From NCBI RefSeq assembly GCF_056746865.1, contig NZ_CM163382.1: 64,000 nucleotides of DNA, one strand, 5' to 3'. The position numbers were made by a program, and so were the translations under genes. Below are positions 1,428 to 4,340 of this stretch, piece after piece. The notes under the pieces are model-generated. The model saw only the letters and a program-made list of their open reading frames with translations. It had not been told where the DNA came from and ran no database searches. Every line of letters begins with the position of its first letter. Position 1 is the stretch's first letter.

Positions 1428-2699
<1,272 letters not shown>

Positions 2700-2724
2700 A
2701 TTGTCATTTTCCACCCTTATAAAA

Positions 2725-2747
2725 GGTCCGCTTGCGGGCCTTTTTTC
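2725..2747 (+). terminator. candidate rho-independent terminator after fabF
   Basis: Imperfect GC hairpin ggtccgc-ttgc-gggcc followed by a T6 run; approximate coordinates. Confidence 0.45.
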
Positions 2748-2750
2748 TTG

Positions 2751-3465
2751 TGCACAGAAAACCCCCAGCTAGGCTGGGGGTTCCGGAAAGCTTTCAGCTT
2801 TGAGCCAGTTATTAAAACCCCTTTTGATTTGTTAAAACACCTTGCGGTCTGGCAACTGCAAGTGTCAAACAAGAAATCAAAAGGGGGTCCCAATGGGGAA
2901 CGAAAAGAGCTTAGCGCACACCCGATGGAACTGTAAATATCACATAGTTTTTGCGCCAAAATACCGAAGACAGGTGTTCTACAGAGAGAAGCGTAGAGCA
3001 ATAGGCAGTATTTTGAGAAAGCTGTGTGAGTGGAAAAGCGTACGGATTCTGGAAGCTGAATGCTGTGCAGATCATATCCATATGCTTGTGGAGATCCCGC
3101 CTAAAATGAGCGTATCCGGGTTTATGGGATATCTGAAAGGGAAAAGCAGTCTGATGCTTTACGAGCAGTTTGGTGATTTGAAATTCAAATACAGGAACAG
3201 GGAGTTCTGGTGCAGAGGGTACTACGTCGATACAGTGGGTAAGAACACGGCGAAGATACAGGATTACATAAAGCACCAGCTTGAAGAGGATAAAATGGGA
3301 GAGCAGTTATCGATTCCCTATCCGGGCAGCCCGTTTACGGGCCGTAAGTAACGAAGTTGGATGCAAATGTCAGATCGTGTGCGCCTGTTAGGGCGCGGCT
3401 GGTAAGAGAGCCTTATAGGCGCATTTGAAAAACCTCCGGCTATGCCGGAGGATATTTATTTAGTT
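2751..3465 (+). mobile_element. IS200-type element (IS200/IS605 family); ends approximate
   Basis: About 710 bp extra DNA between fabF and pabC; perfect 8-bp/3-nt-loop hairpins near both ends (2762-2780 and 3433-3451); RBS-sequestering stem-loop (2818-2886) just before the tnpA start. Confidence 0.7.
2893..3351 (+). CDS. tnpA: IS200 transposase TnpA (Y1 HUH type, 152 aa)
   Basis: Product MGNEKSLAHTRWNCKYHIVFAPKYRR...HIHMLVEIPP... matches the recalled IS200 TnpA sequence; HUH motif (HIH) present. Confidence 0.9.
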   Translation: MGNEKSLAHTRWNCKYHIVFAPKYRRQVFYREKRRAIGSILRKLCEWKSVRILEAECCADHIHMLVEIPPKMSVSGFMGYLKGKSSLMLYEQFGDLKFKYRNREFWCRGYYVDTVGKNTAKIQDYIKHQLEEDKMGEQLSIPYPGSPFTGRK

Positions 3466-3530
3466 TTTATTCCGACTTGTTCCGTAGTGAACATGCTGCC
3501 ACACTAACAATTCTCTGATAAGGAGCCGGT

Positions 3531-4340
3531 ATGTTCTTAATTAACGGTCATAAGCAGGAATCGCTGGCAGTAAGCGATCGGGCAACGCAGTTTGGTGATG
3601 GTTGTTTTACCACCGCCAGAGTTATCGACGGTAAAGTCAGTTTGTTATCGGCGCATATCCAGCGACTACAGGATGCTTGTCAGCGGTTGATGATTTCCTG
3701 TGACTTCTGGCCTCAGCTTGAACAAGAGATGAAAACGCTGGCAGCAGAACAGCAAAATGGTGTACTGAAAGTCGTGATCAGTCGCGGTAGTGGCGGGCGA
3801 GGGTACAGCACATTGAACAGTGGACCGGCAACGCGGATTCTCTCCGTTACGGCTTATCCTGCACATTACGACCGTTTGCGTAACGAAGGGATGACGTTGG
3901 CGCTAAGCCCGGTGCGGCTGGGGCGCAATCCTCATCTTGCAGGTATTAAACATCTTAATCGGCTTGAGCAAGTATTGATCCGCTCTCATCTTGAGCAGAC
4001 AAACGCTGATGAGGCGCTGGTCCTTGACAGCGAAGGGTGGGTTACGGAATGCTGTGCGGCTAATTTGTTCTGGCGGAAGGGCAACGTAGTTTATACGCCG
4101 CGACTGGATCAGGCAGGTGTTAACGGCATTATGCGACAATTCTGTATCCGTTTGCTGGCACAATCCTCTTATCAGCTTGTCGAAGTGCAAGCCTCTCTGG
4201 AAGAGGCGTTGCAGGCAGATGAGATGGTTATTTGTAATGCGTTAATGCCAGTGATGCCCGTACGTGCCTGTGGCGATGTCTCCTTTTCGTCAGCAACGTT
4301 ATATGAATATTTAGCCCCACTTTGTGAGCGCCCGAATTAG
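3531..4340 (+). CDS. pabC: aminodeoxychorismate lyase
   Basis: 269-aa ORF in the conserved fabF-pabC-mltG position; class IV aminotransferase-like product. Confidence 0.9.

What the first reader, a model, noticed from the sequence alone, without database searches (positions are those of the whole stretch)
2751..3465. IS200-type element between fabF and pabC with RBS sequestered in a stem-loop
About 710 bp separate fabF and pabC where I recall only ~120 bp in K-12. The insert encodes a 152-aa Y1 HUH transposase and has matching 8-bp-stem/3-nt-loop hairpins near both ends (2762-2780, 3433-3451), the subterminal structures IS200/IS605 transposases recognise. A second stem-loop (2818-2886) pairs the SD AGGGGG with upstream sequence, the classic IS200 translational block. 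Insertion here could alter read-through from fabF into pabC.
Basis: partly seen in the sequence, partly recalled or inferred. Interest (0 to 1): 0.35.

Follow-up and report, generated by a model that had tools for sequence, protein, structure and literature searches.

The report
Ordinary IS200C insertion after fabF terminator
The extra DNA between fabF and pabC is an intact copy of the well-known small insertion sequence IS200C, already annotated at this same site in other E. coli genomes, so the finding is correct but ordinary.

Summary
Confirmed, and already known. Compared with an empty-site E. coli genome, the window carries a precise 712-bp insert. Its placement is 2749-3460, ambiguous by one base either way, and there is no target duplication. 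The insert is 100% identical to the copy RefSeq annotates as "IS200/IS605-like element IS200C" at the same site in strain 118UI. The site is filled in 219 of 5,426 complete E. coli genomes.

- A 152-aa Y1 HUH transposase (Pfam 3.8e-38; H61-I-H63, Y125).
- Equivalent 8-bp/3-nt hairpins near both ends.
- A stem-loop at 2818-2886 that pairs the Shine-Dalgarno GGGG with upstream CCCC. Rfam RF01405 scores 146 bits, and 9 of 34 pairs show compensatory changes in diverged relatives.

Corrections:
- fabF and pabC are 831 bp apart, not about 710. The insert itself is 712 bp.
- The left hairpin is documented in the literature as a transcription terminator.
- The effect on pabC is untested.

Side observation: this copy and about 100 other IS200-group copies sit immediately 3' of a host terminator hairpin plus T run. 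Here that is the fabF terminator, which stays intact.

The parts
1458..2699 (+). fabF (beta-ketoacyl-ACP synthase II), the upstream host gene
   Evidence: ORF. Pfam ketoacyl-synt domains. RefSeq annotation of the identical locus.
2721..2749 (+). fabF intrinsic terminator: hairpin 2721-2744 plus T run TTTTTTCTT to 2749. It is a host feature, lies immediately 5' of the insert, and is the likely target structure.
   Evidence: (I5). It is present unchanged in empty-site genomes.
2749..3460 (+). IS200C element, 712 bp. Placement is ambiguous by one base either way (2748-3459 or 2750-3461). The choice 2749-3460 fits the published IS200 numbering and the variable base that follows ...TATTTATT in other copies.
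   Evidence: exact empty-site reconstruction; 100% identical, annotated IS200C; ends of about 50 other copies.
2760..2782 (+). Left-end hairpin: perfect 10-bp stem with loop TAG, at IS nt 12-34. It is the published bidirectional terminator and the presumed TnpA-binding hairpin.
   Evidence: I6; Rfam structure. PMC4513863 gives nt 12-34.
2787..2801 (+). Small hairpin at about the published tnpA transcription start (IS nt ~40).
   Evidence: Rfam consensus structure. Alignment fold with GC->AU compensatory change in 3 sequences. The start at about nt 40 is from PMC4513863.
2818..2886 (+). [quoted passage not shown]
   Evidence: I1; 9 of 34 pairs with compensatory changes. PMC4513863 gives nt 69-138.
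2883..2887 (+). Shine-Dalgarno GGGGG within AAGGGGGU. G2883-G2886 pair with C2818-C2821.
   Evidence: PMC4513863 quotes the tnpA SD as AAGGGGGU.
2893..3351 (+). tnpA, the 152-aa Y1 HUH transposase (H61-I62-H63, catalytic Y125). The stop codon is included.
   Evidence: WP_000526135.1. The Y125F catalytic-dead mutant is in PMC4513863.
2812..2902 (-). Predicted art200 (STnc490) antisense sRNA, about 90 nt. Its 5' end is at IS nt 153/154 (window 2901/2902), and it ends after the complementary stem-loop plus UUUU.
   Evidence: Coordinates transferred from PMC4513863. The fold has z -5.1. Expression was not tested here.
2909..2937 (-). art200 promoter-like hexamers: -35 TTTACA (2937..2932), a 17-nt spacer, and -10 CTAAGC (2914..2909), 7 nt upstream of the mapped start.
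   Evidence: Read directly. It fits the description in PMC4513863 of a good -35 and an almost unrecognisable -10. The simple scan does not report it.
3433..3460 (+). Right end: 8-bp hairpin with loop TAT (3433-3451), then the 9-nt tail ATATTTATT that ends the element.
   Evidence: (I4). Compensatory T-A to A-T change in Vibrio, Mailhella and Saccharibacteria copies.
3531..4340 (+). pabC (aminodeoxychorismate lyase), the downstream host gene. 69-70 bp of native leader are kept between the insert and the ATG.

Best explanation
Window 2749-3460 is an intact copy of insertion sequence IS200C, which belongs to the tnpA-only IS200 group of the IS200/IS605 family. It is inserted immediately 3' of the fabF intrinsic terminator, in the same orientation as fabF and pabC.

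It encodes a Y1 HUH transposase. By analogy with IS608 and ISDra2, the transposase would bind the two subterminal hairpins on the top strand, excise that strand as a circle, and paste it into single-stranded DNA at the lagging-strand template ('peel and paste'). This leaves no inverted repeats and no target duplication.

Transposase output is kept very low by known layers, all present in the sequence:
- a left-end hairpin that stops incoming transcription;
- a 5'UTR stem-loop that hides the Shine-Dalgarno sequence;
- the antisense sRNA art200, transcribed across the start codon.

Shown here: identity, borders, protein family, catalytic residues, and the structures with their conservation. Inferred from the literature and by analogy: the transposition mechanism, terminator activity, art200 expression, and neutrality for pabC.
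For: - Precise 712-bp insertion relative to the empty site, with no duplication.
- 100% identity to the copy annotated IS200C at the same site in strain 118UI.
- Filled site in 219 of 5,426 complete E. coli genomes. Full-length copies of the element occur in 2,063 genomes, up to 35 matching places per genome.
- Pfam Y1_Tnp 3.8e-38 and NCBIfam transpos_IS200 equivalog 147.7 bits against a cutoff of 55.
- Homology to solved IS200-family transposases (2ec2, 2f4f, IS608 2a6m/2vjv, ISDra2 2xm3), with HUH and the C-terminal Tyr aligned.
- Rfam RF01405 covers 2760-2883 at 146 bits, E 1e-31.
- The SD-sequestering fold has z -3.8, and 9 of 34 pairs change in a compensatory way in 15 diverged copies.
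- LE and RE hairpins are confirmed, and the RE hairpin covaries.
- Feature positions match the published IS200 map nucleotide for nucleotide when nt 1 = 2749 (PMC4513863: terminator 12-34, stem-loop 69-138, art200 start 153/154).
- 87.5% identity over the full length to about 40 Y. pestis IS1541 copies with the same ends.
- The + strand is G-rich. The element's top strand therefore lies on the lagging-strand template, as the family rule predicts (PMC5027513).
Against: - Nothing contradicts the identification.
- No ISfinder reference sequence was available, so the name IS200C rests on the RefSeq/PGAP label.
- The simple terminator scan does not flag the left hairpin, which has no T run on the + strand. 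Its terminator role rests on cited experiments in Salmonella IS200.
- TnpA binding to these hairpins has not been shown for IS200 itself.
- Activity of this copy is unknown. IS200 is notoriously dormant.
Confidence: 0.97

Rival explanations
1. The segment is native fabF-pabC intergenic sequence, not a mobile element.
For: None. It merely lies in an intergenic region.
Against: About 96% of complete E. coli genomes have a 119-bp spacer. The 712 bp can be removed to recreate that spacer exactly. The same 712 bp occurs at many other loci.
Confidence: 0.003
2. It is a different Y1-transposase element: an IS605/IS608-type element with tnpB, or a REP-associated tyrosine transposase (RAYT) locus.
For: There is a weak NCBIfam hit to REP_Tyr_transpos at 32 bits. 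The fold is the same as IS608 TnpA.
Against: The RAYT score is far below its cutoff of 80, whereas the IS200 equivalog scores 147.7. There is no tnpB ORF and no room for one in 712 bp. There are no flanking REP arrays. The 5'UTR matches the IS200-specific Rfam family.
Confidence: 0.01
3. It is a decayed, non-functional relic of IS200 rather than an intact element.
For: IS200 transposes extremely rarely (PMC4513863). Many truncated copies exist on E. coli plasmids.
Against: - The copy is full length with both ends.
- The 152-aa ORF is uninterrupted, with HUH and Y125.
- The protein is identical to the commonest RefSeq IS200C protein. The collection index lists it in 21,686 blocks (57 carrying contigs were read), and it sits in 9 distinct contexts.
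- Copies elsewhere are 99-100% identical, which implies recent mobility.
Confidence: 0.03
4. The insertion measurably changes expression of pabC and the downstream mltG-tmk-holB genes.
For: It adds 712 bp and two further hairpins between the fabF terminator and pabC. It also leaves only 69-70 bp of native sequence upstream of the pabC ATG.
Against: - The fabF terminator hairpin and its proximal T run are untouched.
- No promoter-like site is found in the region with or without the insert.
- The right end looks terminator-like on both strands, so outward transcription is unlikely.
- The allele persists in 219 complete genomes although tmk and holB downstream are essential (essentiality is from general knowledge).
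Confidence: 0.2

Closest known systems
IS200 of Salmonella enterica (ISfinder IS200 group; studied in PMC4513863, PMC5435999 and Beuzon et al. 1999)
   Same: It has the same layout, and features map position for position: terminator hairpin at nt 12-34, SD-sequestering stem-loop at nt 69-138, a 152-aa TnpA with Y125, and the art200 start at nt 153/154. The Rfam STnc490 model, which was defined on Salmonella IS200, matches at 146 bits.
   Different: This is the E. coli isoform IS200C, 712 bp against 707 bp. The nucleotide identity to the Salmonella reference was not measured here because no reference was available.
IS1541 / IS1541A of Yersinia pestis
   Same: It is 87.4-87.6% identical over the whole length, with the same ends (GTGC.C...TATTTATT), the same hairpins, and the same position right after terminator-like hairpins.
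   Different: It is a distinct isoform, with about 40 copies per genome and some head-to-tail tandems. E. coli genomes have a median of 2 matching places.
IS608 (Helicobacter pylori) and ISDra2 (Deinococcus radiodurans), the mechanistic models of the family
   Same: They have a homologous Y1 HUH TnpA (E 1e-16 to 1e-19 against the solved structures) and subterminal hairpins at both ends. They lack inverted repeats and target duplication, the left end abuts the target, and the top strand lies on the lagging-strand template.
   Different: They carry tnpB and use a short sequence target (TTAC, TTGAT). The IS200 group has no tnpB, and its copies sit after a hairpin plus T run. Cleavage chemistry and guide-target pairing have not been shown for IS200.
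Group IIC (bacterial class C) introns
   Same: They also insert just downstream of rho-independent terminator stem-loops (PMC7923331, background section). This is the closest known analogue for the target preference noticed here.
   Different: They are unrelated retroelements with an RNA-based mechanism.

Membership tests
IS200/IS605 family, IS200 group | Encodes a Y1 HUH (Y1_Tnp) transposase | tested here: met
   Pfam PF01797 at 130.7 bits against cutoff 23. NCBIfam NF033573 equivalog at 147.7 bits against cutoff 55.
IS200/IS605 family, IS200 group | HUH motif and catalytic tyrosine present | tested here: met
   H61-I62-H63 and Y125 align with the solved homologues. Y125F is the published catalytic-dead mutant (PMC4513863).
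IS200/IS605 family, IS200 group | No terminal inverted repeats and no target-site duplication | tested here: met
   Removing 712 bp restores the empty site exactly; only a 2-nt TT ambiguity remains. The ends GTGCAC... and ...TATTTATT are not inverted repeats.
IS200/IS605 family, IS200 group | Subterminal hairpins at both the left and the right end | tested here: met
   2760-2782 and 3433-3451. The RE hairpin keeps pairing through a compensatory change in distant copies. LE conservation cannot be judged because LE was the search pattern.
IS200/IS605 family, IS200 group | tnpA only, about 0.7 kb, no tnpB | tested here: met
   The element is 712 bp with a single credible ORF.
IS200/IS605 family, IS200 group | Left end abuts a specific target, and orientation places the top strand on the lagging-strand template | tested here: met
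   The left flank ends in a T run ...TT in 115-117 of 117 unique flanks. The + strand is G-rich, so the tnpA-sense strand is the lagging-strand template. This orientation is inferred from GC skew, not from a mapped origin.
IS200/IS605 family, IS200 group | Single-strand 'peel and paste' transposition by TnpA acting on the hairpins | not testable with these tools
   This needs in vitro cleavage and strand-transfer assays or in vivo mating-out assays.
IS200 proper (IS200C isoform) | IS200-type 5'UTR: terminator hairpin plus SD-sequestering stem-loop | tested here: met
   Rfam RF01405 at 146.4 bits against a gathering score of 56. Fold and covariation.
IS200 proper (IS200C isoform) | Near-identity to the ISfinder IS200C reference (same-IS rule, about 95% nt or more) | not testable with these tools
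   ISfinder was not available. As a proxy, the DNA is 100% identical to the copy whose protein WP_000526135.1 RefSeq names 'IS200C family transposase'.
IS200 proper (IS200C isoform) | Antisense sRNA art200 expressed opposite the tnpA start | not testable with these tools
   -35 TTTACA, a 17-nt spacer and -10 CTAAGC lie 7 nt upstream of the position equivalent to the mapped start (PMC4513863). The antisense fold has z -5.1. Expression was not measured.
REP-associated tyrosine transposase (RAYT) | Protein reaches the NCBIfam RAYT cutoff and is flanked by REP sequences | tested here: not met
   32.2 bits against cutoff 80. There are no REP arrays next to it.

The most novel reading that the evidence does not exclude
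IS200-group elements do not just survive next to terminators; they actively choose them. On this reading, the transposase complex picks a single-stranded G+C-rich hairpin followed by a T run ending in TT as its target. Two features could explain this:
- Such a site mimics the element's own right end, which is an 8-bp hairpin followed by ATATTTATT.
- The conserved GAAAA 5' of both end hairpins could pair with the T run.

This would explain how a 'dormant' element reaches dozens of harmless copies, and why the fabF terminator was hit here.

[quoted passage not shown] I did not find the structural-mimicry mechanism in the searchable literature.
Probability: 0.5. Interest if true: 0.4.

Novelty: already known. 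Interest (0 to 1): 0.1.

Why it matters
For this window it matters little. It is a correctly recognised, already annotated insertion sequence whose regulation is textbook material for the family. Its practical value is as a strain or lineage marker, since the site is filled in about 4% of complete E. coli genomes. It is also a reminder that 712 bp now separate the fab cluster terminator from the pabC-mltG-tmk-holB genes.

The one point of wider interest is the side observation. IS200-group copies from several phyla sit with nucleotide precision after intrinsic terminators. If this is target choice rather than survivorship, it would define the so far uncharacterised target rule of the IS200 group.

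Tried and rejected
- **MAFFT junction alignment.** The alignment of filled against empty sites misplaced the gap. I read the junction by eye and then verified it by exact string reconstruction. A first script attempt failed because the locus file was not yet available.
- **Other copies in the window.** There are none.
- **Promoter scan of 2600-3600.** It found no sigma-70-like sites on either strand, so it gives no handle on the tnpA, art200 or pabC promoters. The art200 hexamers were placed by transferring published coordinates.
- **Weak Rfam hits.** ctRNA_p42d, sroD and asX2 (E 0.3-0.7) are only generic terminator-like hairpins (the fabF terminator and the RE hairpin) and were dismissed.
- **Older IS200/IS1541 papers.** Odaert 1998 (PMC106867) and Beuzon & Casadesus 1997 (PMC146608) are not held in the library. 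I could not check whether terminator targeting was described there.
- **Literature searches on targeting.** Searches for explicit statements on IS200 or IS1541 terminator targeting gave only the 2025-26 preprint and an incidental pheL-pheA example.
- **Not attempted.** I did not build a phylogeny of the 219 filled-site genomes, and I did not compare with an ISfinder reference because none was available.
- **Spurious ORFs.** The TTG-start 169-aa ORF (2842-3351), the 62-aa ORF (2748-2936) and the antisense 121-aa ORF (2911-3276) are treated as spurious. The annotated 152-aa ATG start has a proper SD 5 nt upstream.

Full report
**Context.** The first 7 kb of the window is the E. coli fab cluster and its neighbours: fabG, acpP, fabF (1458-2699), then pabC (3531-4340), yceG/mltG, tmk and holB. 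This follows from the ORFs, Pfam and the RefSeq annotation of an identical locus.

**Observation check.**
- A megablast of 2400-3900 against 5,426 complete E. coli genomes matched 5,425 of them. Only 219 genomes cover the whole query. The rest align in two pieces that skip the middle, covering 53% of the query.
- The best hit is strain 118UI, at 100% identity. It annotates the middle as tnpA, 'IS200/IS605-like element IS200C family transposase', WP_000526135.1.
- MAFFT misplaced the gap, so I tested the junction directly. Deleting 712 bp and joining 60 nt of each flank gives a string found exactly in the empty site of strain WP8-S18-ESBL-07. This holds for the three placements 2748-3459, 2749-3460 and 2750-3461, and for no others.
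- The insert is therefore 712 bp and precise, with no target duplication and only a TT ambiguity.
- In about 50 other copies the base after ...TATTTATT varies. With nt 1 = 2749, all features also fall on the published IS200 numbering. I therefore take 2749-3460 as the element.
- fabF and pabC are 831 bp apart here and 119 bp apart in empty sites, including K-12 derivatives J53 and MC4100.

**Protein.**
- 2893-3351 encodes 152 aa. It matches Pfam Y1_Tnp (E 3.8e-38) and the NCBIfam IS200 equivalog (147.7 bits against a cutoff of 55).
- It is homologous to solved IS200-family transposases, including IS608 and ISDra2 TnpA.
- The HUH motif is H61-I62-H63 and the C-terminal Tyr is Y125. Y125 is the residue mutated in the published catalytic-dead control (PMC4513863).
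- The RAYT model scores only 32 bits against a cutoff of 80.

**End structures.**
- The left hairpin is a perfect 10-bp stem at 2760-2782 with loop TAG. The right hairpin is an 8-bp stem at 3433-3451 with loop TAT.
- As ssDNA they fold with z -3.3 and -4.4.
- Their 8-bp cores differ at two pairs, both compensated (C-G to T-A, and A-T to G-C).
- In distant copies (Vibrio, Mailhella, Saccharibacteria) the right hairpin reads CCACCGG...CCGGTGG, another compensated change.
- The literature calls the left hairpin (IS nt 12-34) a bidirectional rho-independent terminator that shields tnpA from outside transcription (PMC4513863, PMC2515195, both citing Beuzon 1999).
- Its role as the TnpA binding site is an inference from IS608 and ISDra2, where TnpA binds subterminal hairpins on the top strand (PMC5027513).

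**Translational block.**
- 2818-2833 and 2871-2886 are 94% complementary.
- The RNA fold pairs 2818-2830 with 2874-2886, which puts G2883-G2886 of the SD (AAGGGGGU) in the stem. The energy is -40.4 kcal/mol, z is -3.8, and none of 200 shuffles folds as well.
- Rfam RF01405 (STnc490) covers 2760-2883 at 146 bits, E 1e-31, with this structure.
- In an alignment of 15 diverged copies (65-92% identical), 9 of 34 predicted pairs keep pairing through changes on both sides. One of them is the SD:anti-SD pair, CG to UA in four sequences.
- This is the stem-loop at nt 69-138, shown experimentally to block 30S binding (PMC4513863).

- IS200 also encodes art200 (formerly STnc490). [quoted passage not shown]
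- Transferred to this window, it runs from 2902/2901 down to about 2812 on the minus strand.
- On that strand TTTACA (2937..2932), a 17-nt spacer and CTAAGC (2914..2909) lie 7 nt upstream of the start. This fits the paper's description of a good -35 and a barely recognisable -10.
- The antisense RNA folds with z -5.1 and ends in a stem plus UUUU. Its expression is inferred, not shown.
- The Rfam model matches the tnpA-sense strand, whereas the papers describe STnc490 as antisense (PMC2515195, PMC4513863). The hit therefore certifies the IS200 left end and 5'UTR, not the strand of the sRNA.
- In Salmonella the processed tnpA 5'UTR itself acts as a regulatory RNA (PMC5435999). Nothing can be said about that here.

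**Where it sits.**
- The insert begins right after the fabF intrinsic terminator, a hairpin at 2721-2744 followed by the T run TTTTTTCTT. That terminator is present unchanged in empty sites, so it is a host feature.
- GC skew is positive on the + strand: +0.106 in the first 4 kb and a cumulative +1.06 over the window. The + strand is therefore the lagging-strand template, and the element's top strand (LE to RE, tnpA sense) lies on it. This is the family rule (PMC5027513). The step is an inference from skew.

**Effect on pabC.**
- This cannot be decided in silico.
- The fabF terminator and its proximal U tract are intact. The element adds its left hairpin 10 nt further on.
- The right end reads as terminator-like on both strands. 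No promoter-like site is found anywhere in 2600-3600.
- The allele is carried by 219 complete genomes, so it is tolerated.
- An empty site with 100% identical flanks exists (H2). That is compatible with a recent insertion or with the precise excision typical of the family.

**Side observation.**
They include about 40 Y. pestis IS1541 copies (87.5% identical, full length, same ends). They also include copies in Vibrio, Edwardsiella, Dickeya and Brenneria, and in MAGs of Mailhella, Bacillota, Peptococcaceae, Oxalobacter, Saccharibacteria and Elusimicrobiaceae.
- Together with nine distinct E. coli contexts of the identical TnpA, this gives 117 unique left flanks.
- 97 of the 117 have a hairpin whose foot lies 0-12 nt before the junction, against 12-16% of random positions.
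- With perfect Watson-Crick stems of at least 8 bp, the figures are 62 of 117 against 0.6% (binomial p about 1e-103).
- The last bases of the flank are T at -6, -5 and -4 (83-96%), at -2 (98%) and at -1 (89%). The exceptions at -1 are Mailhella-type elements whose head is one base longer.
- In 9 of 10 E. coli contexts the upstream gene is co-oriented and ends about 50 bp before the element.
- Y. pestis also has head-to-tail tandems in which one copy starts exactly at the ...TATTTATT end of another.
- The nucleotide precision of the junction, the fixed orientation and the tandems argue instead for target choice. The reasoning is that a hairpin plus T run resembles the element's own right end. 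This is my inference and is untested.
- The flanks are unique sequences but not phylogenetically independent, so the p-value is only indicative.

**Verdict.** The object is an ordinary, already annotated IS200C copy with its known control elements.

Noticed in passing
window 2721-2749; loci L004-L133 (left flanks of IS200-group copies): IS200-group copies sit with nucleotide precision right after a host terminator-like hairpin plus a T run ending in TT. With perfect stems of at least 8 bp this holds for 62 of 117 unique flanks, against 0.6% of random positions. The upstream gene is co-oriented in 9 of 10 E. coli contexts. The element's own right end (hairpin plus ATATTTATT) looks like such a target.
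   Followed up: partly
L079, L080 (2694/2693 boundary), L082 (12638/12637 boundary): Yersinia pestis has head-to-tail tandem IS1541 copies. The second copy begins exactly after the ...TATTTATT end of the first, as if the right end of one copy served as the target for another.
   Followed up: no
L004-L075 (MAG contigs of Mailhella, Bacillota, Peptococcaceae, Oxalobacter, Saccharibacteria, Elusimicrobiaceae, Desulfovibrio): The exact 21-nt left-end hairpin CCCCCAGCTAGGCTGGGGGTT is shared across several phyla, while the rest of the elements is only 65-82% identical to IS200C. Most matches lie within about 100 nt of contig ends, as expected for multi-copy repeats that break assemblies. The cause could be an extreme constraint on the hairpin or recent horizontal spread; this was not resolved.
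   Followed up: no
window 2760-2883 (+), Rfam RF01405: The Rfam STnc490 model matches the tnpA-sense strand and includes the left terminator hairpin. The literature defines STnc490/art200 as the RNA antisense to the tnpA start (about 2902 to 2812, minus strand). The family model seems to be built on the opposite strand from the sRNA it is named after.
   Followed up: partly
E. coli plasmids: e.g. NZ_CP026940.2 15256-15599; pO157-like plasmids e.g. NZ_CP038404.1 15562-15702: Many E. coli plasmids carry truncated IS200C pieces: the first ~337 nt at 98-99% identity in many large plasmids, and a 141-nt right-end fragment at 92% identity in O157-type plasmids. These are mostly unannotated.
   Followed up: no
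L015 4412-4490, L107 2485-2608, L120 6201-6324, L077 697-723, L062 5653-5679: These are solo left-end fragments: the hairpin, or the first 79-124 nt of the element, followed by unrelated sequence. They may be remnants of truncated copies.
   Followed up: no
window 2888-2899: A small hairpin UCCC-AAUG-GGGA places the tnpA AUG in its loop, directly after the SD-sequestering stem. It was not examined further.
   Followed up: no
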